DNA of 64,000 bases from Minisyncoccota bacterium (GCA_041920275.1 JAYRSE010000007.1:20517-84516); one strand, 5' to 3'; shown: positions 21,649 to 55,115, counted from the stretch's first letter. The notes: generated from the sequence alone by a model not told the origin. Program-made: numbers and translations.

Positions 21649-22824
21649 TCACAGTAGCTCCTGTCGCAATCGTCGCACCAAGCTCGCGAGGAAATAAAGA
21701 TTGTGTACGCTCGCAAATGTCGCACCGAGCATCTCATGCGCGATGAAAAGATGCCGAAGGTATGCGCGTGTGTAGCCGGCCCCGCAGACCATGCACGCAC
21801 ACCCGGGGTCGACCGGCGAAAAGTCTCGCGTATAGCACTCGTTCGTGAGTGACATCTTTACACCTTCGGGTCCGTAGACCATGCCGGTTCGGGCAAGTCG
21901 TGTGGGCTGCACACAGTCGAACAGGTCGACACCCTGCTCCACCCCGCGGATCAAGTCCTCCGGCTCACCGATCCCGAGCAAGTGACGCGGCTTCTCGGGC
22001 GGGAGCTCATCGGTCACCCACCCGACCGCGGTATCGAGGTCGAGCTTTCGGTAACTGCCTCCGATACCGTACCCGTCGAACTCCATGCGGGCGAGCGTGC
22101 GAGCGCTTTCCCGGCGCAGGTCCTCGAATCTGCCGCCCTGCACGATACCGAATATCCCTTGTCGCGTCCCCGCTTCAACATTTTGCCGGTGTGCACGCAG
22201 CGAACGTTCCGCCCACCGGTGCGTGCGTTCCATCGCCTCCCGCTGGTACGCGTGGTCCGCTTCGGCTCCGGTGCATTCATCGAACGCGAAGAAGATGTCC
22301 GCGCCGAGCGCATGTTGTATCTCAACACTCCGCTCGGGAGTGAAGCGGTGGAGCGAGCCGTCGATATGCGACGTGAAGCTCACCCCCTCTTCGTCGATCT
22401 GTGCGAGTTTGCCGTGCGAGGTGGCAACATCCGGATCGAACACACTTGCCACACGCGTATCCGCGTCCAACTCTTCGCGCGACACCTTGGAGACCGTTTT
22501 TCCGTATGCGGCGCCGAGCGAAAATACCTGAAACCCACCCGAGTCGGTGAGGAGCGGACCGTTCCACCCCATAAACGCATGCAGTCCGCCGGCGGAGCGG
22601 ACCGCTTCGCTGCCGGGCTGCAGATGCAAATGGTAGGTGTTCGCGATGATCGTCTGCACACCAACCCCGTGCAGCATATCGACGGTCACACCCTTCACGG
22701 TCGCCTTGGTGCCGACCGCCACGAAGGCAGGCGTCTCGATGTCGCCATGCGGCGTTCGAATGACACCGGCTCGGGCTTTGGAACCTCTTGAACGAGCGAG
22801 TATCTCGAAAGTGATGGGTTGCAT
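21649..22824 (-). CDS. tgt: queuine tRNA-ribosyltransferase (tRNA-guanine transglycosylase)
   Basis: TPAFVAVGTKATVKGV ... LTDSGGFQVFSLG. C-terminal Zn site CACMVCGAGYTRAYLRH. Confidence 0.9.
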   Translation of the reverse strand: MQPITFEILARSRGSKARAGVIRTPHGDIETPAFVAVGTKATVKGVTVDMLHGVGVQTIIANTYHLHLQPGSEAVRSAGGLHAFMGWNGPLLTDSGGFQVFSLGAAYGKTVSKVSREELDADTRVASVFDPDVATSHGKLAQIDEEGVSFTSHIDGSLHRFTPERSVEIQHALGADIFFAFDECTGAEADHAYQREAMERTHRWAERSLRAHRQNVEAGTRQGIFGIVQGGRFEDLRRESARTLARMEFDGYGIGGSYRKLDLDTAVGWVTDELPPEKPRHLLGIGEPEDLIRGVEQGVDLFDCVQPTRLARTGMVYGPEGVKMSLTNECYTRDFSPVDPGCACMVCGAGYTRAYLRHLFIAHEMLGATFASVHNLYFLASLVRRLRQELL

Positions 22825-23931: not shown

Positions 23932-24540
23932 CTATTGCCCTGTGCTGGTATTGAATCGCACCATCGCGACCTCCCTGCCCTCGTCGATGATCGCGAGCGC
24001 CGCCTGGGCCGCTCTGTCGGCGCTTGTGAGAAGTTCCTCCCATACCGCACCACGCAACGAACGAAGGACGAAGTTGTCCAACTCCTCACCTTTCGCGGGC
24101 TTGGCAATGGTGCCGTCTTGAGCGCGCGGAGCGATGCCGATACGTACCCGCACGAACGCCTTGCTCGCAAACGCTCGCTCGAGCGACAGCACACCATTGT
24201 GGCCACCGGCTCCACGATCGAATGCGACCCGCACGACCCCTTGTGGCAGATCGATGTCATCATGCAGTACGATCACGTGCGCAAGGTCATCCACCCGCTC
24301 TCTGAATGGTCGCACTGAAACTCCCGATCGGTTCATGAACGTCTCGGGCAAGAGAAATGTGACGCTCGCACCACCACGCGTCACTCCTCGCGTCACCCGC
24401 GCTCGAGCGAGCGTATCGGTGTGCCATTCCGCACACGAGCACATGACCGATAGACGTTCAACAGCGACCCTGCCCACATTGTGCCTGCTGGTGGCATACC
24501 GATCACCCGGATTCCCAAGACCGACTACGAGATACTCCAT
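23932..24540 (-). CDS. pth: peptidyl-tRNA hydrolase
   Basis: MEYLVVGLGNPGDRYATSRHNVG N-terminal signature. Confidence 0.85.
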   Translation of the reverse strand: MEYLVVGLGNPGDRYATSRHNVGRVAVERLSVMCSCAEWHTDTLARARVTRGVTRGGASVTFLLPETFMNRSGVSVRPFRERVDDLAHVIVLHDDIDLPQGVVRVAFDRGAGGHNGVLSLERAFASKAFVRVRIGIAPRAQDGTIAKPAKGEELDNFVLRSLRGAVWEELLTSADRAAQAALAIIDEGREVAMVRFNTSTGQ

Positions 24541-24570
24541 GCGTTGCAGTATACAAAATGATCGTAGTCC

Positions 24571-25350
24571 ATGAAAGCGGATCAAAGTGATATGCGGAGC
24601 ATGTTGCAACACTTGCACACTTCATTTTTGTGGTATACTTACCATATCGTTCACCTCTCCTGTTCTATGGATCCGCTTAACATACAACCGCGCTCCACGT
24701 ATCGCGCATTGCAGAACTCACAATCGTTCGAAAGCGACACGGAGGATTGGAACGAGATTGACCGTAACGAAGTGCCCGAAGCCGATCGACCACAGGAAAG
24801 CATCATCAGCGAGATATTCAAGTTCTCCGTACTCGCGATCGCGATCGTCATCCCGTTCCGCATCTACATCGCACAACCGTTCGTGGTGAGCGGTGCATCG
24901 ATGGCGCCCACCTTCGAAACCGGCGAGTACCTCATCGTCGACCGCGCCACCTACCATTTTGAACAACCGCAACGGGGCGATGTGGTCATATTTCGCTACC
25001 CCAGCGACCCGTCGAAATTTTTCATTAAGCGAATCATCGGTCTTCCGGGTGAGACTGTCGAACTTGCCAACGGCGTAAGTTCGATCGTGGGAACGAACGG
25101 TGAACGTGTCTCGCTCGACGAACCGTACCTCAAGACCGACCGCACGGACGACCACATCACCACCCGACTATCCTCGGACGAATACTTCGTGATGGGTGAC
25201 AACCGTGGTGCGAGCTCCGACTCGAGAACATGGGGACCCGTTCCTCGCGAGAACATCGTGGGAAGGGCGCTCATTCGTCTTTTGCCTCCGACACACTTCG
25301 GCATATTTCCCGGGAGCTACACATATACTCGGGAAGTGCCCGCTTCATAA
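24571..25350 (+). CDS. lepB: signal peptidase I
   Basis: VSGASMAPTF (Ser box). GDVVIFRYP. VMGDNRGASSDSRTWGPV (box E). Confidence 0.8.
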   Translation: MKADQSDMRSMLQHLHTSFLWYTYHIVHLSCSMDPLNIQPRSTYRALQNSQSFESDTEDWNEIDRNEVPEADRPQESIISEIFKFSVLAIAIVIPFRIYIAQPFVVSGASMAPTFETGEYLIVDRATYHFEQPQRGDVVIFRYPSDPSKFFIKRIIGLPGETVELANGVSSIVGTNGERVSLDEPYLKTDRTDDHITTRLSSDEYFVMGDNRGASSDSRTWGPVPRENIVGRALIRLLPPTHFGIFPGSYTYTREVPAS

Positions 25351-25359
25351 CGTCGTCCC

Positions 25360-26541
25360 ATGAGATCGACATCGCTGCCAACACAAACATTCTTCAAGCG
25401 CGCCATGGCGGTCGCAGAACATTACGGCTTTTGCAACGTCGACGACCTCGCGTTGCACGAGCACCCCTCTTGTACGAGCGCACACACGATCGATGCGCCG
25501 CTCCCCGAACCGAACAAGATCGACTCGCACGTCATAGAACACGCACTTGCGCGCCTGACCGAGTCGATCGAACTTCGCAAACGGAACGCCATCTTGTTCT
25601 ACACACCATCTCTCGTGCGACATGCGAGCGCGCCCGGCTCGACACTTTCCGCACTCACCTTGAATGCTATCGGCTCATCCGACCCGCTCACTGAAATAGT
25701 CGTCATCAAAAGCACCGCCACCATCCTCGAAGAACTCGGGAACCGTAACGTGACATTGCGCATCAACAGTCTCGGGGACGGTGACTCCGCCACCCGTTTC
25801 GTCCGTGAAGTGGGGACAAAACTTCGTCAGTGCGCAAAAGACCTACCACACCATCTCTCCGAGTTATTGCGGCACGATGTGCGTGCCGCAATAACGCGAT
25901 GCTACGAAGATCGTCATCCCGTGACCGAGAACCTACCGCGGCCCATCGAGTTCCTCACCGCACCAAGTCGCCGGCACTTCAAGCAGATACTTGAGCTCCT
26001 GGAACAAGCGAGTATCCCGTTCGAGATCGACGACATGCTGTACGGCAATCAAAGTATGTACGCACACACGATCTTCGAGTTCATAAACCAACCACTCACC
26101 CCGAATACAGCACCGATCACGCTTGCTCGTGGCGGTCGCTACGATACGCTTACCCGTTCACACGCGCGCACCATGGTACCCGCGACCGGTGCGGTCATTG
26201 CCCTCCCGACCGATCACGGGGCTTCCGATGGTGACATAGCACGTCCGCGGATCAAGAAACCATCCACCTGCTTGGTGCATATCGGTCGTGAGGCGCGTAT
26301 CAAGAGCATCTCCATCATCGAAGCGTTCAGGCGAGCGAAAATACCCATCGGTCAGTGCCTGCAATTCGAACGGTTCTCCGAGCAGGTCGCCTATGCGGAG
26401 TCCCGTGGCGCGCGGTACATCATCATACTTGGTCAACGCGAAGTGCATGATAATGTGGTGATGATCCGCGATGTGAGCGACCGTTCGCAAAGGACCATCC
26501 CCATTACCGCACTTACCGACTTTGTCCGCTCCGCATTATAA
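25360..26541 (+). CDS. histidyl-tRNA synthetase-like class II aaRS paralogue with degenerate catalytic motifs and an intact anticodon-binding domain
   Basis: MLYGNQSMYAHTIFEF resembles HisRS LVRGLDYYT.TVFE. LARGGRYDTL resembles the GGRYDGL motif 3. C-terminal GARYIIILGQREVHDNVVMIRDVSD is anticodon-binding-domain-like. The motif-2 region reads LFYTPSLVRHASAP instead of the conserved RHERPQ. Confidence 0.5.
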   Translation: MRSTSLPTQTFFKRAMAVAEHYGFCNVDDLALHEHPSCTSAHTIDAPLPEPNKIDSHVIEHALARLTESIELRKRNAILFYTPSLVRHASAPGSTLSALTLNAIGSSDPLTEIVVIKSTATILEELGNRNVTLRINSLGDGDSATRFVREVGTKLRQCAKDLPHHLSELLRHDVRAAITRCYEDRHPVTENLPRPIEFLTAPSRRHFKQILELLEQASIPFEIDDMLYGNQSMYAHTIFEFINQPLTPNTAPITLARGGRYDTLTRSHARTMVPATGAVIALPTDHGASDGDIARPRIKKPSTCLVHIGREARIKSISIIEAFRRAKIPIGQCLQFERFSEQVAYAESRGARYIIILGQREVHDNVVMIRDVSDRSQRTIPITALTDFVRSAL

Positions 26542-26669: not shown

Positions 26670-26915
26670 ATGATAGTTCACACTGAAGTCGTTCGACACG
26701 GCAACGAGAACGTGCTCGGCATGATGCGCAGATTTACCCGCAAATCACAAGGGAGCGGGGTCGTGAAGCGGGTACGCTCTCTGCGGTACCACGAACGCAC
26801 TCCTTCGTCAACCCGCAAAAAATTGGACGCCCTCACCCGCATCAAACGCACGGAAGAGTACATGGCACTCTACAAACTCGGGCGCGAACCGCAAACGAAA
26901 AAGAAACGTCGATAG
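26670..26915 (+). CDS. rpsU: 30S ribosomal protein S21
   Basis: 81-aa basic protein. V.RHGNENVLGMMRRFTRK ... RKK..AL.R pattern typical of S21. Confidence 0.7.
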   Translation: MIVHTEVVRHGNENVLGMMRRFTRKSQGSGVVKRVRSLRYHERTPSSTRKKLDALTRIKRTEEYMALYKLGREPQTKKKRR

Positions 26916-26920
26916 ACACC

Positions 26921-27316
26921 ATGACGGAACGACCGTCGAATTGCGTGATAACGAGCACGGTCCGAAGGTCGGTCGATACCGGCGACCTTTGCGGTATCGC
27001 ACAGCACATACTCGGTAAAGAGTATCAGCTTTCGATAGTCATCACCGGTGACATGCGCGCACGCCGCATCAACCGTACCTACCGCCACAAGGACTACGCT
27101 CCGAACGTCCTCTCCTTCCCGCTCGATGAACGATCGGGGGAAATATATTTGAACATCGCACGCATCACGCGCGAATGCCATTCGTTCAAACTCTCTCCGA
27201 AGGGCCATCTGCGCTACTTGCTTATCCACGGATGTCTCCATTTGAAGGGGTACCGCCATGGGAGTACAATGGACCATACGGAGCAGGAACTCATTGAGCG
27301 ATTCAATATCGTATAG
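26921..27316 (+). CDS. ybeY: rRNA maturation endoribonuclease YbeY
   Basis: HGCLHLKGYRHG metal-binding motif. 131 aa. Confidence 0.85.
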   Translation: MTERPSNCVITSTVRRSVDTGDLCGIAQHILGKEYQLSIVITGDMRARRINRTYRHKDYAPNVLSFPLDERSGEIYLNIARITRECHSFKLSPKGHLRYLLIHGCLHLKGYRHGSTMDHTEQELIERFNIV

Positions 27317-27383
27317 GATCGCCCACTCGGACACATGCTTTCGTGCGAATGACGCCGCATGGTATGGCGCCCCTTGTATTACT

Positions 27384-28544
27384 ATGTCACGAACTCATGC
27401 CGTCGGAATCGATATAGGCACCTACCAGATAAAGGTGGTGGTCGCTTCGACTTCGAAAAAAGACCAGCGCCCTATCATTATGGGTACCGGATACGCACAA
27501 TCCCGCGGTATACGCCATGGCTACATCATCAATAAGGATGACATGGTGCGTACACTTCAAGCGGCTATCAAGCAAGCGGAAAAGGAGTCGGGATTCGCGA
27601 TCCGTCACGCATTCCTTTCAGTTGGAGGTATCGGTCTTGAAGAGTACCGTTCACGCGCAGAGATCATCATATCGCGAGCGGACGGTGAAGTGACCGAGCT
27701 CGACACCAAGAATGTCCTCGACGAGAGCGAGCGCAAGATCTCCTCACGCCTCACCAACCGCAAAGTGATCCACGCAATACCGCTTTCGCACCGCATCGAC
27801 GGAGAGCGAGTGCTCGGGCGTCCCGTGGGCATGAAGGGTACCAAGCTCGAAGTGGAAGCGCTGTTCGTAACGAGTCTGGAGCAACATGTGAACGACCTCA
27901 TAGCGGTGGTCGAAGAACTCGGCATTTCGGTGACGGATGTCATGGCAAGCCCCATCGCGGGGAGTTTCGTGACACTCACCAAGGCGCAGAAGATCGCCGG
28001 TGTGGTCCTTGCGAACATCGGAGCGGAGACCGTGTCCATCGCGGTCTTCGAGAACGAAACACCCATCAGTGTACGCGTATTTCCCATCGGTTCGACCGCC
28101 ATTACGCACGACATCGCGCTCGGACTCAAACTCTCTCTCGAAGATGCCGAGGAAGCGAAGGTGGGTTCTCAGAATGCACCGGTCGGATCGCAAAAGCGCT
28201 TGGATGAGATCATCACCAACCGTCTCTCGGACATTTTCCGCCTCATCGACGCACATCTTAAAAAGATCGGCAAGAATGGTCTGTTGCCCGCCGGCATCGT
28301 TATATCGGGCGGCGGATCAGGTGTCACCACGATCGAGGACGTGGCAAAGGTCGCACTCAGGCTTCCCAGTAAGCGCGCAACGTTCACGACACCACAGCCG
28401 ACCAAACTCAAAGATTCAAGCTGGGCGGTTGCGTACGGTCTGTGCATTTGGGGACTTCGGAACGAAACGCAGACGAACACGTTCTCCACTTTGCGCGAGA
28501 ACGCATCCGGCGCACTCCAATGGTTCAAACAATTTCTACCCTAG
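27384..28544 (+). CDS. ftsA: cell division protein FtsA
   Basis: Actin-fold start MSRTHAVGIDIGTYQIKVVVA. Immediately upstream of ftsZ. Confidence 0.85.
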   Translation: MSRTHAVGIDIGTYQIKVVVASTSKKDQRPIIMGTGYAQSRGIRHGYIINKDDMVRTLQAAIKQAEKESGFAIRHAFLSVGGIGLEEYRSRAEIIISRADGEVTELDTKNVLDESERKISSRLTNRKVIHAIPLSHRIDGERVLGRPVGMKGTKLEVEALFVTSLEQHVNDLIAVVEELGISVTDVMASPIAGSFVTLTKAQKIAGVVLANIGAETVSIAVFENETPISVRVFPIGSTAITHDIALGLKLSLEDAEEAKVGSQNAPVGSQKRLDEIITNRLSDIFRLIDAHLKKIGKNGLLPAGIVISGGGSGVTTIEDVAKVALRLPSKRATFTTPQPTKLKDSSWAVAYGLCIWGLRNETQTNTFSTLRENASGALQWFKQFLP

Positions 28545-28664
28545 CAGCCAAAAGCATAGCGCTTCCTCTTGTGCCGCATGATACATGCGGACTTTTTGTC
28601 AACAGTTACGCTTCTCTTTTTATTTGCTATAGTGCATACCACATAACGATCAAGCACAATACAT

Positions 28665-29942
28665 ATGCCCCAAGTTCAACCAGAGGTGGAATCCTTCGCA
28701 CGCATTCGCGTGGTGGGAGTCGGCGGTTCTGGAGGCAACGCCATCAACCACATGATCAACTCCGATGTCAAGGGGGTTGAGTTCATCGCGATCAACACCG
28801 ACGCGCAGGATCTCCAGCATTCGAAAGCGAAAAAGAAAGTGCATGTGGGCAAAAACCTCACACGCGGCCTCGGTGCGGGCGGTAATCCCGATTTCGGCCG
28901 TCGTGCCGCGGAAGAGACGCAGGAGGAGGTCCTTGAAGCACTTCGCGATTCCGACATGGTGTTCATCGCGTGCGGCATGGGTGGCGGCACCGGCACCGGC
29001 GCCGCACCGATCATAGCGAAACTTGCCAAGGAGGCGGGGGCGCTCACGGTGGGAGTGGTTACGAAACCCTTCACCTTCGAAGGACAGCAACGTATGCGCT
29101 CAGCGGAGGAAGGTATCACTGCACTCAAGGCGGAAGTGGACGCCATCATCACCATACCGAACGATCGACTGCTTGCGATCGTCGATCGTGACACGTCGGT
29201 CCTCAACGCATTTGCGCTCTGTGACGACGTACTACGTCAAGCGGTCGAGGGTATCTCGGATCTCATCACCTCTCCGGGTATCGTGAACGTAGACTTCGCG
29301 GATATCAAGACCGTCATGCAAAGCGCCGGCTCCGCACTCATGGGAATCGGCCTCGCGTCGGGAGAAAAACGCGCAGAGGAAGCGGCGCAACGAGCGATCA
29401 ATTCACCACTACTCGAGGTCTCCATCTCGGGTGCGCGCGGCGTACTCTTTGCGATAGCGGGGGGCGAGGATCTCGGTATGCTTGAGGTGCAAGATGCTGC
29501 ACGCATCATCACCGAAAGTATCGATCCGAACGCGCGCGTCATATTCGGTGCGTTCCGTGATGACAAGTTGAAGAAAGATGAGATCAAGGTGACCGTTATC
29601 GCCACCGGGTTCATTGAGGATTCGCACACTGATATCGAAACACCGTTCACAAGCATCGCAAGGCCGATCGAGAAGCGTGAGGAAAGCGAACGCATCGGAC
29701 AGATCCACAACACCCTCATCGACAATCGTGACATTCGTCCCACCACCCCGCCCCGTCCGATCGCCCCGTTCGGTCGCCATAAAGAGCTTCCGATCGACGA
29801 ACCGGTACGTGAAGAAAAGCGCCCAACACGACCTTCCACACCCCAGGAACCCGCCGCTCCCGCAAAGCCTTCCGGCGAAGAGGAGGACGACGATTCGGAG
29901 TGGGGCATTCCACCGTTTCTCCGCCGCTCGAAGATCAAGTGA
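28665..29942 (+). CDS. ftsZ: cell division GTPase FtsZ
   Basis: GVGGSGGNAINHM and GGGTGTGAAPIIA tubulin signature motifs. Confidence 0.95.
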   Translation: MPQVQPEVESFARIRVVGVGGSGGNAINHMINSDVKGVEFIAINTDAQDLQHSKAKKKVHVGKNLTRGLGAGGNPDFGRRAAEETQEEVLEALRDSDMVFIACGMGGGTGTGAAPIIAKLAKEAGALTVGVVTKPFTFEGQQRMRSAEEGITALKAEVDAIITIPNDRLLAIVDRDTSVLNAFALCDDVLRQAVEGISDLITSPGIVNVDFADIKTVMQSAGSALMGIGLASGEKRAEEAAQRAINSPLLEVSISGARGVLFAIAGGEDLGMLEVQDAARIITESIDPNARVIFGAFRDDKLKKDEIKVTVIATGFIEDSHTDIETPFTSIARPIEKREESERIGQIHNTLIDNRDIRPTTPPRPIAPFGRHKELPIDEPVREEKRPTRPSTPQEPAAPAKPSGEEEDDDSEWGIPPFLRRSKIK

Positions 29943-33263: not shown

Positions 33264-33647
33264 TCACACCGGATTGAGCTTACGAAGGAGCAAACGACGT
33301 TGCTCGAGTTCCTTTCTTTGCAGCTCGAAATACACTCGTCCGGCCTTAGTGATCGAATACCTCTCACCATCCTTGATGACGTGCCCAAGTCGCTCATGCA
33401 TGTCCATAAAATGTTCGAGTGAGCACCACAGGCACGCGATCACTCGTTCGTCAACGGCCTCATGCGAAGCACCGGAAAGTGTGCGTCCCTCAAGCCACTC
33501 CTTCACCCGATCATGCGTTTCGGGTTGGACTCTGTTAAAGGCGTCCATCTGCCTTTTGATCTCTGCAAGCGTGATACCGTCACCGTCACGACCGAGCAAG
33601 GAAACACCCACGACGGTCACCCCGATCAGGTGATGCATCTTTTTCAT
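33264..33647 (-). CDS. hypothetical 127-aa protein (possible winged-helix regulator)
   Basis: ORF between the peptide gene and the ATP-grasp operon on the opposite strand. GERYSITKAGRVYFEL resembles a wing. Weak. Confidence 0.35.
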   Translation of the reverse strand: MKKMHHLIGVTVVGVSLLGRDGDGITLAEIKRQMDAFNRVQPETHDRVKEWLEGRTLSGASHEAVDERVIACLWCSLEHFMDMHERLGHVIKDGERYSITKAGRVYFELQRKELEQRRLLLRKLNPV

Positions 33648-33762
33648 GCGTCATCCTCCAAATCCAAATCTGCCTACATCGATAATAGCACCAAATTCGC
33701 ACGACACAACATACCAACCAACCCTCAAACCACCATTCCCACACCATGGTGACTTTGTTCGA

Positions 33763-33790
33763 TTGACATATCATGTAATGTCGATATATT
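33763..33790 (+). promoter_or_regulatory. sigma70-like promoter TTGACA-N16/17-TATATT upstream of the ATP-grasp operon
   Basis: TTGACA at 33763-33768 and TATATT/ATATTT at about 33785-33791. First in-frame ATG of the downstream gene is at 33811. Confidence 0.35.
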
Positions 33791-33810
33791 TATCGTGCGA
33801 CCACATACGC

Positions 33811-36309
33811 ATGCGGAGTCACCGGTGCACGACAGCATCCGATACGTCCTCACCATCATATCCGACCCACAACGTGAAAAAGAGACAAAACACCGAACAC
33901 TCCGAATTATCCGGAAAGACTATCATATTGGTCAACACCGGTTCGATGAAGAAAAAGTTCATCGTACAGCGACTGAAACAGCTCGGTCTTCGTATCATCG
34001 CAATCCATCATGAAAAGAACTGGGCCGCACCGTATGTCGATCGCTGGATACTCACCGACACCAAAAATCACACCAAGGCACTTGAAGATGTCGATTCGTT
34101 CCTGCACACACATACCGATCTTTCCGTGGATGGCATTCTTACCTTTTGGGAGGACGACGTGCTCTTGACCTCGAAGATCGCCGAGGAGCTTGACCTGATC
34201 AGCGTGCCGGTCGCAATTGCGCGGCAGGTGCGTGACAAATTTTTATTCAGGACGTTCTGTACCGAGAACGACATCCGCACACCAGAACATTTGCTTATTA
34301 AGGACGAACGGGATCTTGATCACGTCGTCGCCAACTTCACCTTCCCCGTCGTACTCAAGCCCACATTCGGCTCCGGGAGTGCATTTGTCATCAAGGCGCA
34401 AGACAAAGAGGAATTCTTCAATACGTACGAGTATATCGATCGCAACATATCTCCCAACATTGAATCTTCACTCAATGAGGGTCTCGATGTGCTGGTTGAA
34501 AGTTATATCGACGGCGACGAGGTCGATATCGATATCCTGCTCCAGAACGGAAAGATCAAATACTTTGCCATCGTCGACAACTATCGAACCGAGGAACCTT
34601 TTTTCATCGAAACCCAGCAAGCGATCCCCTCTGAACTTCCACGGAAGGACCAAGACGCGCTCGTGGAGATGGCCGAAACGGTGCTCGAAAAGTTGGGAAT
34701 CCAGAACGGCTGTATCCACTTCGAAGCAAAGGCGACTCGCCGGGGACCGGTACCGATCGAGATAAACCTCCGCATGGGGGGCGATGAGACCTACACATTC
34801 AGCAAAGAGGCATGGGGTGTTGATTTGATCGAGGGTGCGGCGAAGATCGCACTTGGAATATACCTCCCGAAGGTGCAAAAGCCGGATACCCCTCGAAAAT
34901 ACCTTATGAGCAACACGTTCACTCCGAAACAATCGGGACTTCTCGTCAAACTCGATGTAGACGAGCAAATAAAGAAAGTACCGGGCGTAGAGGAACTCTG
35001 TCTTTTCAAGCAAGCGGGCGATGCGGTATTGGTACCTCCCGAAGGATACGAGTATCTCGGTTGGATCGTGGTCTCGGGTGAGAATCCGCTCGATACGGAA
35101 CACAACTTCAACGAGGCACTGAAATGCATACGCTATGATGTCGCCCGATTCCACTCATCCTCTTCAATCGGGAAGACGCTTCGGCGAAACCGTTTTTCCA
35201 TGGCATCCGCCAACAAGGAACTCCTTGAAGGGGCGGCAAAGATCGAACGCATGCGACGCACCTCGATCAAGAACCAACGAAACCTGCATGTCGGTGTGGT
35301 CTACAACATGTTCCAAGAAGAAGATGGGGTCGTGGAAGCGGCACTCTCGGCAATGGGTACCGATATTGAGGAGGCACTCCATGAGCGCGGATATCAAACC
35401 ACCCCATTCGACATGAACGAACCCGTGCGCTGTATTAACGAGCTCAAGGGCAGCAATGTCGATATTGTATTCAATGCGTGTGGCAGGATCAACAATTCAA
35501 GCATGCTCAAGCCGCATGCGGCAGCGATTCTCGATATGTTGCGAATACCGTATACCGGATCCAATCCATTCACCCTCGGTCTCTGCAATGATAAGATACG
35601 GATCAAAAAGCTGCTCTCGTTCCACGGCATACCGACTCCGCGCTGGGATTACGCCTACACCATCGAGGATGACATCGACCAGACGCTCAAGTATCCACTC
35701 ATCGTAAAGCCGGCGAATACCGACAACTCGATCGGTATTACCAATGACTCGGTCGTCACCGATCGCGCACAGCTCCAGCAGCGACTCGCGTATGTCATTC
35801 ACGAACTCGGGAGTCCCGCGCTCATCGAGGAATACATCGACGGCGATGAATACGCGGTGCCGATCATCGGGAGCGAGGAAGACGACCTCCGAGTCCTTCC
35901 CCTCTCCCGCATTACGTTCGACACCTTGCCGAACGAGCTGTGGCACATCCTTCCGTACGATGCGAAGTGGGGGGACAAAACACCGTACGAAAAGATCTCC
36001 GTTGAGGAACCCTCGAAGAACACGAACAAGAAACTCGAGTCACTGATCACCGAGATCGCTCTCGACACGTACAATATACTCGATTGCCACGATTATGGTA
36101 TCGTGGAGATCAAGGTGGACAAAAACAGCAACCCATACGTACTTGAACTCAACCCGAACCAACACATGCGTACCGAGGACATACTTCCCCGTGCCGCACG
36201 GCTGGTGAAAATGAGCTACGCGGACCTGGTAGAAGAGATCATCCGAATCGCGATCAAACGATACGAGAACAGGCCACACTATTACCACCTGCAAACCGAC
36301 TCCATGTAG
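33811..36309 (+). CDS. di-domain ATP-grasp ligase (N-terminal ATP-grasp, C-terminal D-Ala-D-Ala-ligase-like ATP-grasp)
   Basis: Domain 1: FPVVLKPTFGSGSAFV ... ESYIDGDEVDIDIL ... HFEAKATRRGPVPIEINLRMGG. Domain 2: HVGVVYNMFQEE ... IVFNACGRINN ... LIVKPANTDNSIGIT ... EEYIDGDEYAVPIIG ... YVLELNPNQHM. Start uncertain (33811 ATG; could be GTG 33884). Confidence 0.7.
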   Translation: MRSHRCTTASDTSSPSYPTHNVKKRQNTEHSELSGKTIILVNTGSMKKKFIVQRLKQLGLRIIAIHHEKNWAAPYVDRWILTDTKNHTKALEDVDSFLHTHTDLSVDGILTFWEDDVLLTSKIAEELDLISVPVAIARQVRDKFLFRTFCTENDIRTPEHLLIKDERDLDHVVANFTFPVVLKPTFGSGSAFVIKAQDKEEFFNTYEYIDRNISPNIESSLNEGLDVLVESYIDGDEVDIDILLQNGKIKYFAIVDNYRTEEPFFIETQQAIPSELPRKDQDALVEMAETVLEKLGIQNGCIHFEAKATRRGPVPIEINLRMGGDETYTFSKEAWGVDLIEGAAKIALGIYLPKVQKPDTPRKYLMSNTFTPKQSGLLVKLDVDEQIKKVPGVEELCLFKQAGDAVLVPPEGYEYLGWIVVSGENPLDTEHNFNEALKCIRYDVARFHSSSSIGKTLRRNRFSMASANKELLEGAAKIERMRRTSIKNQRNLHVGVVYNMFQEEDGVVEAALSAMGTDIEEALHERGYQTTPFDMNEPVRCINELKGSNVDIVFNACGRINNSSMLKPHAAAILDMLRIPYTGSNPFTLGLCNDKIRIKKLLSFHGIPTPRWDYAYTIEDDIDQTLKYPLIVKPANTDNSIGITNDSVVTDRAQLQQRLAYVIHELGSPALIEEYIDGDEYAVPIIGSEEDDLRVLPLSRITFDTLPNELWHILPYDAKWGDKTPYEKISVEEPSKNTNKKLESLITEIALDTYNILDCHDYGIVEIKVDKNSNPYVLELNPNQHMRTEDILPRAARLVKMSYADLVEEIIRIAIKRYENRPHYYHLQTDSM

Positions 36310-36357
36310 TAACGTACAAGAGAGCGGCATTACCGACGCTAATTAAACACAGATACC

Positions 36358-37761
36358 ATGAATACACCGAACAGGCCGCTACCACAAGAGCTCGTTGTTG
36401 ACGGCAAAATCACCGACAGCGGGATCACGGTCGTCGTGAACAAAGAACGTTTTCCTATCCGCTATCCGAAGGCCATTTGGGCGAGCTACCCCGAGGATGC
36501 AAAGGCGGCGCTTTGCGATGCTCTGACGGTGAGTTCGACCATGTTCCTTCCCCAGATCTTGTCCCTTCCCGAAATACGCTACAAGACCGCACGAACCCTT
36601 GCCGAAACGTTCTTTTTCAAGAACGGCATCTACGACATGCCTTGCACGGCCATCTCGGATAAGAAATCGTCGATCACATACATCAAGGATTTCTTCAATG
36701 TTCGCTCGCATTTCGGCACCAATGTGATCCGAACCGTCCATACCGAACGTCCGATCTCGGACACGCCGACCGCCATCATCCCCTTCTCTTTCGGCAAAGA
36801 GAGCATGCTCACACTTGCCCTCTGTAAGGAGCTCGGCATCAGACCGATCCCGATCATTTTCATCGAACCTTCACACACCTTCGAACATGCGCACAAAAAG
36901 AAAATGATCGCTCTCTTCGAAAAGGAGTTCGACGTAAAGATATACATCACAGAGAATGCACCGGGTATTTTCAGGTATGGAAAATACTGGGGGTTTTCGA
37001 CGGAGCTTGGGTGGGGACTCCACACCACGGAATGTGCACTGCTTACACTTCCGTTTGCACACCACTTCAATGCGGACTACATCATCCTTGGAAACGAACA
37101 ATCATGCAACGATTTCTACATGAACAAAGAGGGTGTGCTCACATACTCCGCAGCCTATGATCAACACACCGACTGGACCACTCAACAAGGACTCCTTGCT
37201 TCCCTGTTGCTCGGTAGGGAGATCGAGGTTGCAAGCTTCATGGAGCCGCTGTACGAACTCGCGATACTGAAGGTGCTACACACTCGTTATCCTGCATACG
37301 GCGCGTACCAAATGTCGTGCTTTGCGAACAATGAACAGGCGAAAGAGGTACGGTGGTGCCAGAACTGCTCGAAATGCGCGTACGTCTATGCACTCTCAGC
37401 GGCCTCCGACATCGACCTTGAGCGCATGGGCTTCACGGAAAACCTGTTTGACAACGCGCACGCACACCTGTACACAGATTTCTTCAAAAAAAATGTTCCG
37501 GGTCTTGAGTATGGGACCAAGGAAGAGCTTGGCCTTGCATTCTTACTTGCCACCGACCGTGGCCGAACCGGTCACACGATCGATCTATTTCGAAAAAAGT
37601 CGTACGCTCATTTCGCCACACAGAAAGAAGAGCTCATGCGTCGGTACCTGGGCATCCACCCGTTCCAGAACATCCCGAACGATGTTTCCCCTGAGATCGT
37701 GCGCATATACGAACAAGAGCTCGGGGTATCCAAAACGAAAACACGTTTCCGTTCAAAATAG
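36358..37761 (+). CDS. PP-loop (adenine nucleotide alpha-hydrolase / PAPS-reductase-like) superfamily protein, specificity unknown
   Basis: IIPFSFGKESMLTLALCKELG resembles the vSFSGGKDS PP-loop. C-terminal CQNCSKCAYVY Cys cluster. Assignment from motif only. Confidence 0.45.
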   Translation: MNTPNRPLPQELVVDGKITDSGITVVVNKERFPIRYPKAIWASYPEDAKAALCDALTVSSTMFLPQILSLPEIRYKTARTLAETFFFKNGIYDMPCTAISDKKSSITYIKDFFNVRSHFGTNVIRTVHTERPISDTPTAIIPFSFGKESMLTLALCKELGIRPIPIIFIEPSHTFEHAHKKKMIALFEKEFDVKIYITENAPGIFRYGKYWGFSTELGWGLHTTECALLTLPFAHHFNADYIILGNEQSCNDFYMNKEGVLTYSAAYDQHTDWTTQQGLLASLLLGREIEVASFMEPLYELAILKVLHTRYPAYGAYQMSCFANNEQAKEVRWCQNCSKCAYVYALSAASDIDLERMGFTENLFDNAHAHLYTDFFKKNVPGLEYGTKEELGLAFLLATDRGRTGHTIDLFRKKSYAHFATQKEELMRRYLGIHPFQNIPNDVSPEIVRIYEQELGVSKTKTRFRSK

Positions 37762-37826
37762 TCCTTCCGGCCACACCATGTCAAGACGGGTAACTCATGA
37801 AAAGTACACATTCCACTTCACGCACC

Positions 37827-39110
37827 ATGGCGGTTTGGCTCAACATGCTGGAGCCCATCTTTTTTCACGAACGTGACCGCGATGGACTCTTGATCATCGC
37901 ACTCGATCACACTCCGGTCGCAGAGTACGCGCGGAAACACTACCGTTCCGACGAACTGCTTTTGGTATCAAGTACTCGACCGCTCCCATGTCCCACGTTC
38001 GACGAACTCCTTACCGAGACCGACCTTGCGGATCGACTCATGGAGCGATCGGTCACCCAACTCGCGGTACCGTACCGCACCAAGAAAGAGTACCGCGTGT
38101 GGGCTCGCGCTCACCACATCACGCTCATAACCCCTTCGGCACATATACAGAATCGCCTCGAGAACAAACGAGCGTTCCAACGACTGCTCGAAGGCCATGG
38201 CGTGCGTACACCCGCAGTACTTCGTGAACGAGCGCAGGTGCTGCCGGGAAAAACATACGTGATCCAAAAGAGCGTCGGCTCGGGCATGCTTGGCACCGAG
38301 TTTCTTCGAGCGGATGACGTGCGAGACATTCACTTCACCCGTTCAACCCTTGTCCGCGAGTACGTGGAGGGAATCCCTATCGGCGTAAGCATCATCATCG
38401 ATCGAGCGGGAATTGCGATCTTTTCGGCGACGCGAAGACAGTGTTTTGAGTACGAGAACGGCTTTCCGAAGACATTCCTCGGCATACAGTGGCTCCCTGC
38501 CGACTTCCTTTCGAAACAGACGATCGAATCGATCCGCCACGAACTAATGCGTGTCTGCTCGTTACTTCACACTGCATCCTTCGCCGGCATGGCCAACATC
38601 GACCTCGTCATAGCACACGACCGCGCGTACGTACTTGAATGCAATCCGCGCCTCTCTGCGTCGACCCCACAACTCTTTTCCGTACCGGGACTCACCGCAC
38701 ATGCGGAACCGTGGCCACTCTATGTGCGCGCCTGTTTACGCAAGCGATTCGACCTGTCAAATACTCTTATTTGTCACATTCCCAAGAGCCCCTACATGGG
38801 CTCCACGCTCGATATCGACGTGCCTGCATGTTCCGACACAACACACGTTCCCCCCGTGGGGACCTACCGCCTCACCCCCGCCGGCGTGTCTTTTGTCGAA
38901 AAGGATCGACACCTATCGGATGATCACAACACGTTCTTCCTTTTTCACGAACTCAGCGAACCACATACCCGCATACAACAAGCATTCACGCTCGCGAGCA
39001 TCTACAGCAACACGCCACTCTACGACCACACCACCGGCACCTTGAACGCGCACGGATCAAAACTGCGCACTGCCGTATGTACCTTATTCGGTTACCATCC
39101 CACCCCATGA
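37827..39110 (+). CDS. ATP-grasp domain enzyme (third ATP-grasp module of the operon)
   Basis: NKRAFQRLLEGHGVRTP ... YVIQKSVGSGMLGTEF ... VREYVEGIPIGVSII ... MANIDLVIAHDRAYVLECNPRLS. Confidence 0.65.
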   Translation: MAVWLNMLEPIFFHERDRDGLLIIALDHTPVAEYARKHYRSDELLLVSSTRPLPCPTFDELLTETDLADRLMERSVTQLAVPYRTKKEYRVWARAHHITLITPSAHIQNRLENKRAFQRLLEGHGVRTPAVLRERAQVLPGKTYVIQKSVGSGMLGTEFLRADDVRDIHFTRSTLVREYVEGIPIGVSIIIDRAGIAIFSATRRQCFEYENGFPKTFLGIQWLPADFLSKQTIESIRHELMRVCSLLHTASFAGMANIDLVIAHDRAYVLECNPRLSASTPQLFSVPGLTAHAEPWPLYVRACLRKRFDLSNTLICHIPKSPYMGSTLDIDVPACSDTTHVPPVGTYRLTPAGVSFVEKDRHLSDDHNTFFLFHELSEPHTRIQQAFTLASIYSNTPLYDHTTGTLNAHGSKLRTAVCTLFGYHPTP

Positions 39111-40468
39111 ATACACACAATGACAGGACGCCACCACTCGTTTCCGAAGTGATGAAAGCGGAACTTCGTAAGAAATTCACGCGTATTTTGCGCGAAGAAT
39201 ATACCGGATCCGCACGAAGCTTGCTACCGGTCGTACGAGGCGTGCGCCGGAAGCGCGATCGATTCCTCGAGATCGTCCGGACGCATGGCACACCGTGCTT
39301 CGTGCTCGATGAAGAGGCGCTTGAAGACTCGCTCGAATCGTTCGATCGAGCGTTCAAGGCGATTCCCGACCTGGAAACATACTATGCGATAAAAGTGAAC
39401 GACCACCCGGTTGTATTGCGTACGATCGTTGAACATGGGTACGGACTGGACGCTTCGAGCGAACGTGAGCTCCGTCTTGCGATCGAAGCGGGAGCGAAAC
39501 GGATCATATACACCGGTCCCGCAAAGAGCCGCGCGGGACTTTCTCTTGCACTCGAACACGCCTCCAAGGTGGTAGTGCACCTCGACAGTTTTCACGAACT
39601 TGCACTCCTCGCGGAGGTCACTTCCGCACAAGAACGGGCAATCGTTGCGGGAGTACGGATCACCTCGGCGTCCGCGTGGAACAAATTCGGCATACCGCTT
39701 GAAGACCTGCGCCGATTCTATGACCTCGCCCGCAACCATCCGAGCATTGACCTATGCGGTATTCAGACACATCGGAGTTGGAACACGGACCACGAACCGT
39801 ACGTGGATACGATGCGTCAGGTTGCAACATACCTTGCGGACCATTTCACCACCGAAGAACGCGCCGGTTTCCGTTTTTACGACTTTGGTGGCGGTTTTGT
39901 CCCCGATGCAACGGAAGGAGAGCACCCGTGGTATTCGCCACAAGGAAAAGTGGTACGAGCCATCTACGAATACTTCGAGGAAGAAGCCCCCTTCCCCTAC
40001 AAACACCACACGTTCCGCTCATCACCACTGCGCGAATACGCACGCGGTATCGCCGTCGGTATAAAAAACCACCTCCGACCGACCCTTCCGAATGCACGGT
40101 ACATGACGGAGCCGGGTCGCATCATTGCCGACAGTGCGATGCATGTGCTGCTTCGTATAGCGGATCGCAAGGAAGGACTCATTATCGCGGATGGCGGCTT
40201 GAACATGATCGGATATGAGCGTTATGAAGATGAGTACTTTCCCATCGTAAACCTTACACATCCGGGAAAAAAGGAGATTGACTGCATGGTCTACGGCTCA
40301 CTCTGCATGATGCAAGACCGCTGGGGATACTCATGCTTCGCATCAAAACTCGAGATCGGTGACGTGCTCGTGGTACCGAACCAAGGCGCCTTGACCTACT
40401 CGCTCTCACAAGACTTCATTCACGGCAAACCCCCGGTGCACATACTTCCTCGTTCATCACGGAAGTGA
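39107..40468 (+). CDS. PLP-dependent decarboxylase, fold type III (diaminopimelate/ornithine decarboxylase family)
   Basis: TPCFVLDEEAL ... YAIKVNDHPVVLRTIVEHGYGLDASSERE (PLP lysine) ... FDFGGGF. Start ATG overlaps the upstream stop (ATGA). Confidence 0.75.
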   Translation: MNTHNDRTPPLVSEVMKAELRKKFTRILREEYTGSARSLLPVVRGVRRKRDRFLEIVRTHGTPCFVLDEEALEDSLESFDRAFKAIPDLETYYAIKVNDHPVVLRTIVEHGYGLDASSERELRLAIEAGAKRIIYTGPAKSRAGLSLALEHASKVVVHLDSFHELALLAEVTSAQERAIVAGVRITSASAWNKFGIPLEDLRRFYDLARNHPSIDLCGIQTHRSWNTDHEPYVDTMRQVATYLADHFTTEERAGFRFYDFGGGFVPDATEGEHPWYSPQGKVVRAIYEYFEEEAPFPYKHHTFRSSPLREYARGIAVGIKNHLRPTLPNARYMTEPGRIIADSAMHVLLRIADRKEGLIIADGGLNMIGYERYEDEYFPIVNLTHPGKKEIDCMVYGSLCMMQDRWGYSCFASKLEIGDVLVVPNQGALTYSLSQDFIHGKPPVHILPRSSRK

Positions 40469-55014: not shown

Positions 55015-55115
55015 GGGACCACTATACCACGGGGCATGCCGACGTCGAAGACTTGACGTACGCGCGCGGGAGTGTGGCGCATACAAGCGCCACAATCTCC
55101 CCCGCCCTTCCACCG

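What the first reader, a model, noticed from the sequence alone, without database searches (positions are those of the whole stretch)
25360..26541. HisRS-like paralogue with degenerate catalytic core but conserved anticodon-binding domain
The C-terminal about 100 aa matches the class II anticodon-binding domain (GARYIIILGQREVHDNVVMIRDV). The HisRS-specific blocks are recognisable: MLYGNQSMYAHTIFEF for the RGLDYY..TVFE block, and LARGGRYDTL for the GGRYDGL motif 3. The motif-2 region reads LVRHASAP rather than the conserved FRHERPQ, losing the catalytic Glu/Arg. HisZ-type regulators lack the anticodon domain, so this looks like a different kind of pseudo-HisRS. It might be tRNA-binding and non-catalytic, or it might act on a non-canonical substrate. 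No canonical hisS is present in this window.
Basis: partly seen in the sequence, partly recalled or inferred. Interest (0 to 1): 0.5.

Follow-up and report, generated by a model that had tools for sequence, protein, structure and literature searches.

The report
Catalytically dead HisRS kept for tRNA binding
This gene sits where Parcubacteria (candidate phyla radiation) normally keep their histidyl-tRNA synthetase, but it has lost every residue needed to activate histidine while keeping the residues that read the tRNA-His anticodon, so how these bacteria charge tRNA-His is an open question.

Summary
ORF 25360-26541 (+, 393 aa) has the full three-domain HisRS fold (AlphaFold pLDDT 88.7; best structural matches are bacterial HisRS). 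It lacks the LRPEGT loop, the motif-2 residues, the HisA arginine and the acceptor-stem contacts.

It keeps motif 1 (YGF), NSxGD, the motif-3 arginine and the anticodon-binding domain. The three residues that read the GUG anticodon (E361, R370, Q377) are invariant across the family.

It is not a paralogue at a new locus. It occupies the slot pth(-)|lepB|X|rpsU|ybeY|ftsA|ftsZ, where canonical Parcubacteria hisS lies (51 of 58 informative loci).

The family is large: at least 148 clusters at 50% identity, monophyletic and nested inside canonical Parcubacteria HisRS. All parts are under purifying selection. Other lineages have lost catalytic residues independently at the same slot, each replacing a glycine that contacts the histidine substrate (R257 here).

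Best reading: a non-catalytic, HisRS-derived protein that binds the tRNA-His anticodon. I could not test whether a working HisRS lies elsewhere in these genomes. PGAP's name for relatives, "ATP phosphoribosyltransferase regulatory subunit", is not supported. I found no literature on this family.

The parts
25360..26541 (+). Pseudo-HisRS gene (393 aa plus stop). It has the full HisRS fold: class II core, helical insertion domain and C-terminal anticodon-binding domain.
25381..25431 (+). Motif-1 helix remnant, TQTFFKRAMAVAEHYGF (aa 8-24). Y22, G23 and F24 are shared with canonical HisRS. This is the likely dimer-interface element. The motif-1 proline that follows is lost.
   Evidence: G23 100% and F24 99% across 149 family representatives.
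25591..25674 (+). Motif-2 beta-hairpin remnant (aa 78-105, ...ILFYTPSLVRHASAPGSTLSALTLNAIG). The strands are kept and the loop is 4 aa shorter. The canonical R, E, PQ, GR, R, Q and E residues are all replaced, and the loop is hypervariable within the family.
   Evidence: Alignments. Predicted strands E78-87 and E95-104.
25780..26013 (+). Helical insertion domain (aa 141-218). The canonical NPxRxLDxK acceptor-stem motif is lost. The family has its own conserved S143, R146, R149, E150, P195, S203 and R204.
   Evidence: The role of the canonical motif comes from PMC4357726.
26038..26082 (+). HisA (histidine-1) remnant, LYGNQSMYAHTIFEF (aa 227-241). The catalytic Arg of RGLDYY is replaced by G229. 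The T-x-F-E part is kept.
26122..26151 (+). Motif 3 / histidine-2 block, LARGGRYDTL (aa 255-264). G258 is 100% and R260 99% conserved. R257 replaces a glycine of the histidine-2 dipeptide (T. thermophilus Gly284-Gly285), whose main chain contacts the histidine substrate.
   Evidence: Mapping through the alignment onto the T. thermophilus numbering of PMC4357726. The same position is replaced independently in other decayed lineages.
26266..26538 (+). Anticodon-binding domain (aa 303-393). It includes G358-Q-R-E361, R370 and Q377 (nt 26431-26490). These correspond to T. thermophilus G385-E-D-E388, K397 and Q404, which read G34, G36 and U35.
   Evidence: Pfam. Mapping. E361 100%, R370 99% and Q377 100% across 149 representatives.
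23932..25350 (.). Upstream half of the conserved neighbourhood: pth (23932-24618, minus strand) and lepB signal peptidase I (24571-25350, plus strand). lepB ends 9 nt before the gene.
   Evidence: The same pair precedes canonical hisS.
26670..29942 (+). Downstream half of the conserved neighbourhood: rpsU (26670-26915), ybeY (26921-27316), ftsA (ORF 27258-28544) and ftsZ (28665-29942).

Best explanation
The gene encodes a pseudo-synthetase. It descends from the Parcubacteria histidyl-tRNA synthetase and stayed at the ancestral hisS locus. It kept the HisRS fold, the motif-1 dimer element and a working tRNA-His anticodon-reading domain. It lost the ability to bind or activate histidine and ATP, and to dock the G-1/CCA end of the tRNA in an active site.

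Shown:
- Loss of all catalytic and acceptor-end contact residues.
- A bulky residue (R257) placed at a glycine that contacts the substrate.
- Invariance of the three anticodon-reading residues.
- Purifying selection on the whole protein.
- Positional orthology with hisS.
- Repeated independent decay of the same kind in sister lineages.

Inferred:
- The protein binds tRNA-His through the GUG anticodon, probably as a dimer.
- It serves as a tRNA-His-specific binding or adaptor module: sequestration, delivery to another enzyme, or sensing.
- Histidylation itself is done by another protein encoded outside this window.

For: 2. Catalytic loss. Residues more than 85% conserved in canonical relatives are replaced and unconserved in the family: LRPEGT; motif 2 G, P, F, R, H, Q, R, Q and E; HisA V, R, G, L, Y; and the G..DR after motif 3. 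The motif-2 loop is hypervariable and shortened. All acceptor and G-1 contacts of T. thermophilus HisRS are lost (R7, E64, RGGR, E114, R115, Q117, K118, R120, R122, K209).

3. Blocked pocket. R257 aligns with a Gly of the histidine-2 dipeptide that hydrogen-bonds the substrate.

4. Anticodon-binding domain kept. E361, R370 and Q377 are 99-100% conserved in 149 representatives. In recently decayed lineages this domain keeps canonical-level identity (61-76%) while the N-terminal part of the catalytic core drops to 38-69%.

5. Selection. pN against an 83%-identical orthologue is 0.10, within the range of lepB, rpsU, ybeY, ftsA and ftsZ (0.05-0.15). The N-terminal remnant gives 0.09.

6. Locus. 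The slot is the same as for canonical hisS.

7. Family. About 100 clusters at 90% identity and at least 148 clusters at 50% identity. It is monophyletic in 100 of 100 bootstraps.
Against: - No biochemistry exists. Inactivity is inferred from sequence alone.
- The motif-3 arginine (99%), G258 and the T-x-F-E strand stay conserved, so some nucleotide or phosphate binding cannot be excluded.
- No second HisRS was seen in the window (64 kb) or within about 10 kb (less where a contig ends) of the gene in the related loci examined. A replacement enzyme is therefore assumed, not observed.
- Several independent decays would each need a replacement enzyme, which is unparsimonious unless a common alternative exists.
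- The anticodon-binding domain of the window's own lineage has also sped up (39-42% identity to canonical, against 58% between canonical pairs).
- The NJ tree may suffer from long-branch attraction.
Confidence: 0.68

Rival explanations
1. It is a very divergent but still functional HisRS and the only one in the genome. It would use a rewired active site, for example R257, R146, R149 and R204 standing in for the lost arginines.
For: - It occupies the hisS locus.
- No other HisRS was found in any sequence I could read.
- The motif-3 Arg and G258 are about 100% conserved, and there are family-specific conserved arginines.
- Purifying selection acts on the catalytic-domain remnant.
- From my own knowledge, not checked here: HisRS is generally treated as a single-copy marker in CPR genomes.
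Against: - No known class II synthetase works without the motif-2 arginine. The motif-2 loop here is shortened and hypervariable between family members, which is not how an active-site loop behaves.
- All histidine-contacting side chains are gone (Thr of LRPEGT, Glu130 and Arg259 equivalents), and a substrate-contacting glycine is replaced by R, K, Q, E or other residues.
- The catalytic core evolves faster than the anticodon-binding domain, the reverse of canonical HisRS.
Confidence: 0.1
2. It is the tRNA-binding subunit of a two-component HisRS. A separate protein lacking an anticodon-binding domain would supply catalysis, as in PheRS alpha/beta or bacterial GlyRS alpha/beta.
For: - The dimer element (YGF helix) and the anticodon triad are retained while catalysis is lost.
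- Decay is repeated but the gene is never deleted, so the protein appears to be needed.
Against: - No candidate partner was seen in the conserved neighbourhood.
- In T. thermophilus HisRS the tRNA contacts mostly one subunit, so trans catalysis would need a new geometry (PMC4357726).
- This is speculation without genome-wide data.
Confidence: 0.08
3. It is a HisZ-type regulatory subunit of ATP phosphoribosyltransferase, as PGAP names several family members.
Against: - TIGR00443 scores 29.8 bits against a cut-off of 271.65. All HisZ NCBIfam models are far below their cut-offs, and the hisS model scores four times higher.
- The family profile finds HisRS (E = 8e-51) but no HisZ chain among PDB sequences.
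- The anticodon-reading residues are invariant, which a HisG regulator would not need.
- No his genes are in the window or the related neighbourhoods.
- From general knowledge, not tested on these genomes: CPR bacteria generally lack amino-acid biosynthesis.
Confidence: 0.03
4. It is a decaying relic with no function, on its way to deletion.
For: The catalytic motifs are lost and evolution has sped up.
Against: - Full-length intact ORFs exist in at least 148 clusters at 50% identity.
- pN is comparable with neighbouring essential genes.
- The anticodon triad and the motif-3 Arg are invariant.
- Genomes this small delete useless genes quickly.
Confidence: 0.02

Closest known systems
Canonical bacterial histidyl-tRNA synthetase (HisRS, TIGR00442), specifically the Parcubacteria/Paceibacteria clade (e.g. 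P0102, P0132, P0091)
   Same: It shares the three-domain fold and collinear homology over 387 columns. It shares the genomic slot. It shares motif 1 YGF, NSxGD, GGRYD and the anticodon-reading residues of the C-terminal domain.
   Different: It lacks the N-terminal GxRD segment, the motif-1 Pro, LRPEGT, the motif-2 catalytic and tRNA loop, NPxRxLDxK, the HisA arginine and the G..DR after motif 3. It scores 121 bits against the 287-bit cut-off. Identity is 19% in the N-terminal part of the catalytic core and about 40% in the anticodon-binding domain.
HisRS-like domain of the eukaryotic kinase GCN2
   Different: GCN2 is eukaryotic and is one domain of a multidomain kinase. By established knowledge it binds uncharged tRNAs in general. 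This protein is a stand-alone bacterial protein with no effector domain, and it keeps the histidine-specific anticodon triad. The two arose independently.
HisZ, regulatory subunit of ATP phosphoribosyltransferase
   Different: HisZ has no anticodon-reading domain and works with HisG in histidine biosynthesis. The HisZ models score far below threshold here. The profile search of PDB sequences finds no HisZ.
Non-catalytic class II-like subunits that carry the tRNA-binding function: PheRS beta, and POLG2 as a repurposed class IIa fold
   Different: They are different families. No partner has been identified here.

Membership tests
Histidine--tRNA ligase (functional HisRS; TIGR00442 / class IIa aaRS) | Whole-protein score above the curated family cut-off | tested here: not met
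   TIGR00442 scores 121.1 bits against a cut-off of 286.75, aligned only from aa 102-381. Pfam tRNA-synt_His scores 25.4 against 25.
Histidine--tRNA ligase (functional HisRS; TIGR00442 / class IIa aaRS) | Class II motif 2 with its invariant arginine and the acidic and Gln residues (fRhErPQxGRxRxFxQxxxE) | tested here: not met
   All these positions are replaced. The loop is 4 aa shorter and hypervariable in the family.
Histidine--tRNA ligase (functional HisRS; TIGR00442 / class IIa aaRS) | Class II motif 3 arginine (GGRYD) | tested here: met
   R260 is 99% and G258 100% conserved in 149 representatives. The preceding substrate-contacting Gly is replaced by R257.
Histidine--tRNA ligase (functional HisRS; TIGR00442 / class IIa aaRS) | Histidine-specific elements: LRPEGT loop (Thr/Glu) and HisA RGLDYY (catalytic Arg) | tested here: not met
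   The LRPEGT region is replaced by unrelated sequence. HisA reads YGNQSMY, with G229 at the Arg position.
Histidine--tRNA ligase (functional HisRS; TIGR00442 / class IIa aaRS) | Class IIa anticodon-binding domain with residues that read GUG | tested here: met
   HGTP_anticodon E = 3.6e-8. E361, R370 and Q377 correspond to T. thermophilus E388, K397 and Q404 and are invariant.
Histidine--tRNA ligase (functional HisRS; TIGR00442 / class IIa aaRS) | Histidine activation and tRNA-His aminoacylation activity | not testable with these tools
   This needs ATP-PPi exchange and aminoacylation assays.
HisZ (ATP phosphoribosyltransferase regulatory subunit; TIGR00443) | Score above the family cut-off | tested here: not met
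   TIGR00443 scores 29.8 bits against 271.65. Seven other HisZ models score 21 bits or less against cut-offs of 335-643.
HisZ (ATP phosphoribosyltransferase regulatory subunit; TIGR00443) | Partner short-form HisG and histidine-biosynthesis genes in the genome or operon | tested here: inconclusive
   None is in the 64-kb window or the related neighbourhoods. Whole genomes could not be read.
HisZ (ATP phosphoribosyltransferase regulatory subunit; TIGR00443) | No functional anticodon-binding domain | tested here: not met
   A complete anticodon-binding domain with an invariant anticodon triad is present.
Pseudo-synthetase that binds tRNA (functional analogy with the GCN2 HisRS-like domain) | HisRS fold with catalytic residues lost | tested here: met
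Pseudo-synthetase that binds tRNA (functional analogy with the GCN2 HisRS-like domain) | Direct binding of tRNA | not testable with these tools
   Inferred only from conservation of the anticodon-contact residues.

The most novel reading that the evidence does not exclude
The genomes that carry this family may have no other HisRS at all. His-tRNA(His) would then be made by an unrecognised route. One option is a two-component enzyme in which this protein only supplies tRNA-His recognition to a separate catalytic protein. Another is a radically rewired active site. The repeated independent decay of hisS in several Parcubacteria lineages would then reflect a shared alternative that makes canonical HisRS chemistry dispensable.
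Probability: 0.15. Interest if true: 0.95.

Novelty: new variant of a known kind. Interest (0 to 1): 0.7.

Why it matters
Aminoacyl-tRNA synthetases are among the most universally conserved enzymes, and HisRS is used as a single-copy marker. In a large, ancient and diverse group of CPR bacteria, the gene at the hisS locus encodes a protein that cannot perform the canonical reaction, yet it is kept under selection with its anticodon-reading residues intact.

There are two possible outcomes, and both matter.
- These cells carry a replacement HisRS and use the old one as a tRNA-His-specific binding protein. That would be a free-standing bacterial counterpart of the GCN2 HisRS-like domain.
- They make His-tRNA(His) in an unknown way.

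It also has practical consequences. JGI annotates these genes as "histidyl-tRNA synthetase" and PGAP as "ATP phosphoribosyltransferase regulatory subunit". Both names mislead metabolic reconstructions and completeness estimates.

The graded series of independent decays is a natural experiment on the order in which a synthetase loses its functions. The tRNA acceptor-end contacts and the histidine pocket go first, and the anticodon-binding domain is not lost at all.

Tried and rejected
Rejected explanations:
- HisZ: NCBIfam scores, the PDB profile search and the presence of the anticodon-binding domain all argue against it.
- Decaying pseudogene: region-wise pN matches the neighbouring genes, though dS is saturated so dN/dS values are only rough.
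- Regulatory RNA or T-box around the gene: Rfam found nothing at E <= 1 in 22-30 kb.
- Domain fusions that might hint at a partner: the long family members P0435 and P0474 show only the anticodon-binding domain.

Attempts to find a second HisRS in the same genomes all failed:
- tblastn of canonical HisRS against the window and 26 related loci (466 kb) found one HisRS-like gene per locus.
- I looked for canonical HisRS clusters whose longest contig matches the long contigs that carry the family (651, 339, 224, 175, 156 kb and others). None appeared among the 120 rows shown per search.
With A3 it returned only 12 species loci.
- The metagenome scan with canonical HisRS showed that Parcubacteria-type hisS is nearly always at the same slot. 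There is therefore no sign of a relocated copy of that type. Three off-slot loci (L049, L102, L107) are distant types on short contigs.
- Look-ups of genes at the window ends, meant to read beyond the window, found nothing on record.
- No tRNA-His gene lies in 1.1 Mb of fetched loci, so tRNA-His identity elements could not be examined.

Ten literature searches found nothing on a CPR pseudo-HisRS.

Full report
**1. What is there**

ORF 25360..26541 (+) encodes 393 aa. It starts 9 nt after the stop codon of lepB. The residues upstream of the alternative start M16 (F11, F12, A15) are conserved in relatives, so the long form is real.

Database matches are weak for a synthetase:
- Pfam finds the class IIa anticodon-binding domain (E = 3.6e-8, aa 321-390).
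- Pfam tRNA-synt_His scores 25.4 bits against a cut-off of 25.
- The NCBIfam hisS model scores 121 bits against a cut-off of 287 and aligns only from residue 102.
- Solved HisRS chains align from residue ~99 on, with E about 1e-17.

The window holds no other HisRS (tblastn with seven queries), no other synthetase among 30 further large ORFs and no tRNA gene.

**2. Fold**

An AlphaFold model built on 61 family sequences is confident (pLDDT 88.7, pTM 0.90). It shows the class II antiparallel sheet, a helical insertion domain and the alpha/beta C-terminal domain.

Profile-profile comparison with canonical Parcubacteria HisRS is collinear over 387 columns, probability 100%.

**3. What is lost and what is kept**

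I compared about 100 family members column by column with about 50 canonical HisRS (motif views).

Residues more than 85% conserved in canonical enzymes but replaced and unconserved in the family:
- the N-terminal GxRD segment and the motif-1 proline;
- the K-E-M-Y...LRPEGT block;
- motif 2 (G84, P85, F87, R88, H89, Q93, R94, Q98, E102 in window numbering, canonical residue given);
- the insertion-domain motif NPxRxLDxK;
- the HisA peptide V-R-G-L-D-Y-Y (G229 sits at the arginine);
- the G..DR after motif 3.

The motif-2 loop is four residues shorter and differs even between close relatives: VRHASAPG, LRDPSRPS, VSSPGAPN, VSHPAAPS. The "VRH" that looks like a relic of FRHE is found only in the window protein and its closest relative P0003 among the sequences examined.

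I mapped positions through the HMMER alignment to T. thermophilus HisRS onto the published HisRS-tRNA complex (PMC4357726). All acceptor-end and G-1 contacts are gone: R7, E64, the 71-RGGR-74 peptide, E114, R115, Q117, K118, R120, R122 and K209. The histidine contacts Thr83 and Glu130 are gone too.

R257 aligns with a glycine of the histidine-2 dipeptide Gly284-Gly285, whose main chain hydrogen-bonds the substrate.

Kept:
- the motif-1 helix with Y-G-F;
- N-S-x-G-D;
- A256, G258 and R260 (the motif-3 arginine);
- T-x-F-E;
- the C-terminal domain.

In that domain G358, E361, R370 and Q377 correspond to T. thermophilus G385, E388, K397 and Q404. These residues read G34, G36 and U35 of the GUG anticodon. 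Across 149 representatives of 50%-identity clusters, E361 and Q377 are 100% and R370 is 99% conserved.

**4. It is the positional orthologue of hisS, not a paralogue**

In the window, the gene order is pth(-) | lepB | X | rpsU | ybeY | ftsA | ftsZ. The same order holds in an 83%-identical relative (L013) and in a 34%-identical "Kaiserbacteria" relative on a 651-kb contig (L001).

Canonical Parcubacteria HisRS genes occupy exactly this slot, with the same wider upstream context (methyltransferase, gyrA, Lactamase_B, S1):
- P0091;
- Wildermuthbacteria P0111;
- P0132;
- P0118.

A metagenome scan with a canonical alignment returned 80 loci. Of the 58 with at least 900 nt upstream, 51 have lepB directly upstream. 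Four of the remaining seven still have pth, ybeY or ftsA around them. The three true exceptions are distant HisRS types on short contigs.

**5. Size, age and selection**

The word-indexed search found about 100 clusters at 90% identity, all lacking LRPEGT, motif 2 and HisA. Nearly all carry A-R-G-G-R-[YFH]-[DN].

An exhaustive HMMER search of 1.84 billion cluster representatives shows the family is much larger. The top 150 all score at least 356 bits. Of the 145 not seen before, 144 lack all four canonical motifs tested. The list is truncated, so the true size is larger.

The names given by sources are "histidyl-tRNA synthetase" (JGI), "ATP phosphoribosyltransferase regulatory subunit" or "hypothetical protein" (PGAP). 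All are from Parcubacteria, Paceibacteria or "Kaiserbacteria".

In a neighbour-joining tree the family is monophyletic in 100 of 100 bootstraps and nested within canonical Parcubacteria HisRS, on long branches. Long-branch attraction is a caveat. The shared deletion in motif 2 and the shared N-terminal truncation also support a single origin. The Arg before GGR is less diagnostic, because it also arose in independent decays (section 6).

Against the 83%-identical orthologue, pN is 0.104 overall:

| Region or gene | pN |
|---|---|
| aa 1-104 | 0.090 |
| aa 105-220 | 0.099 |
| aa 221-295 | 0.185 |
| aa 296-393 (anticodon-binding domain) | 0.061 |
| neighbouring lepB, rpsU, ybeY, ftsA, ftsZ | 0.05-0.15 |

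dS is saturated, so the ratios are only indicative. This is not a decaying pseudogene.

**6. Repeated decay in other lineages**

Other lineages have lost catalysis independently at the same slot.
- The P0107 group (P0107, P0255-P0265) is 58% identical to canonical P0102. Its motif 2 reads FFRD(K/R)N.Q...K-ESK and its HisA reads Q(G/E)SNYY. NPLRLLDCK has become NPLQLLTCQ, and GVDR has become (E/K)ID(H/N).
- P0288/P0309, P0273/P0274 and P0103 show further separate patterns.
- P0103 and the P0107 cluster sit at the lepB slot.

In nearly all of these lineages the Gly before G-G-R is replaced by Q, R, K, E, T or V. P0273 is an exception that still has GGGRYD.

Their anticodon-binding domains stay as similar to canonical P0102 (61-76%) as canonical ones are to each other (63-74%). 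The N-terminal part of the catalytic core falls to 38-69%, against 70-80% for canonical pairs.

For the window protein, identity to P0102 by region is 19% (N-terminal catalytic core), 18% (insertion domain), 28% (C-terminal catalytic core) and 39% (anticodon-binding domain). In canonical pairs the N-terminal part of the catalytic core is the best-conserved region.

**7. Interpretation**

The evidence supports a non-catalytic, HisRS-derived protein that still reads the tRNA-His anticodon. It is probably dimeric, because the motif-1 element is conserved.

What it does with the bound tRNA is inferred, not shown. Options are sequestration, delivery to another enzyme, sensing, or acting as the tRNA-recognition subunit of a split enzyme. 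The conserved basic residues of the insertion domain (R146, R149, R204) could still touch the acceptor stem.

The conserved motif-3 arginine is unexplained. It may be structural, or it may bind a phosphate.

**8. The open question**

Histidine is used normally in these proteomes; the protein itself contains histidines. His-tRNA(His) must therefore be made somehow. I could not read whole genomes. No second HisRS was found in the window or within about 10 kb (less where a contig ends) of the gene in the related loci I examined. Parcubacteria-type hisS is essentially never found away from this slot.

A xenologous HisRS elsewhere in the genome is the conservative expectation. Five or more independent decays would each require such a replacement, which makes a shared alternative worth testing.

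I put about 15% on there being no other HisRS in these genomes. That figure spans two of the rival readings scored separately in the report: a rewired but active enzyme, and a two-component enzyme.

**9. Comparison with known systems and novelty**

- It fails the membership tests for functional HisRS: family cut-off, motif 2 and the histidine-specific motifs.
- It fails the tests for HisZ: cut-off, and the presence of an anticodon-binding domain.
- Functionally it most resembles the HisRS-like domain of GCN2. Unlike that domain it is a free-standing bacterial protein with histidine-specific anticodon residues and an independent origin.

Ten literature searches returned nothing on such a protein in CPR bacteria. 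I rate it a new variant of a known kind (a pseudo-synthetase). It could become categorically new if no replacement HisRS exists.

Noticed in passing
window 33646-40468 (+): A cluster of four co-directional genes. The first is an 887-aa fusion of an ATP-grasp_4/L-amino-acid-ligase module with a D-Ala-D-Ala-ligase-like module. The second is a 467-aa protein with no Pfam match. The third is a 437-aa ATP-grasp_3 protein. The fourth is a PLP-dependent Orn/DAP/Arg decarboxylase. This looks like a small peptide or amino-acid-ligation pathway, which is unusual for a reduced CPR genome. The start of the same fusion gene appears at the end of the related locus L014.
   Followed up: no
window 21649-22824 (-): A queuine tRNA-ribosyltransferase (TGT, E = 1.6e-127) lies 2.5 kb upstream of the pseudo-HisRS. 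It is conserved there in close relatives (L009-L011, L013). tRNA-His is one of the four TGT substrates, and TGT modifies G34, the base read by E361. This may be coincidence. The Kaiserbacteria locus L001 does not have it nearby.
   Followed up: partly
loci L012 and L027; proteins P0103, P0107, P0255-P0265, P0273/P0274, P0288/P0309: Independent, more recent losses of HisRS catalytic residues in other Parcubacteria lineages. L012 and L027 show this at the same pth|lepB slot. Nearly all replace the glycine before GGRYD. PGAP names P0288 'ATP phosphoribosyltransferase regulatory subunit'.
   Followed up: partly
L049 1695-3011; L107 955-2244: Canonical CPR-like HisRS genes that are not at the pth|lepB slot. 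One follows a RecG-like helicase and the other follows a RelA/SpoT-like gene. Both are on short contigs. They could be ordinary hisS of other CPR classes, or examples of relocated or replacement hisS.
   Followed up: partly
window 1-64000: GC content is about 52-59% over most of the window, which to my knowledge is high for Parcubacteria/CPR. It drops to 47% in the last 2 kb. No tRNA gene is present in 64 kb.
   Followed up: no
window 55116-58622 (-): A 1168-aa protein with two Laminin_G_3 (concanavalin-like lectin) stretches and a weak lipase/LCAT-like region. It lies next to an 859-aa O-antigen-ligase/TPR protein (52726-55305) and polysaccharide-synthesis genes. This is a likely cell-surface locus.
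   Followed up: no
window 27258-27316: The longest ftsA ORF (from 27258, 428 aa) overlaps the end of ybeY by 59 nt. Gene calls for identical-neighbourhood contigs differ: 428 aa in L010 and 386 aa in L009 and L013. The ftsA start is therefore uncertain.
   Followed up: no
loci L015, L022, L023, L025, L026 (GTDB records): Several third-party-assembly MAG records that carry this Parcubacteria-type locus are titled 'uncultured Candidatus Saccharibacteria bacterium'. The gene content and synteny look like Parcubacteria, so the record titles are probably generic or wrong.
   Followed up: no
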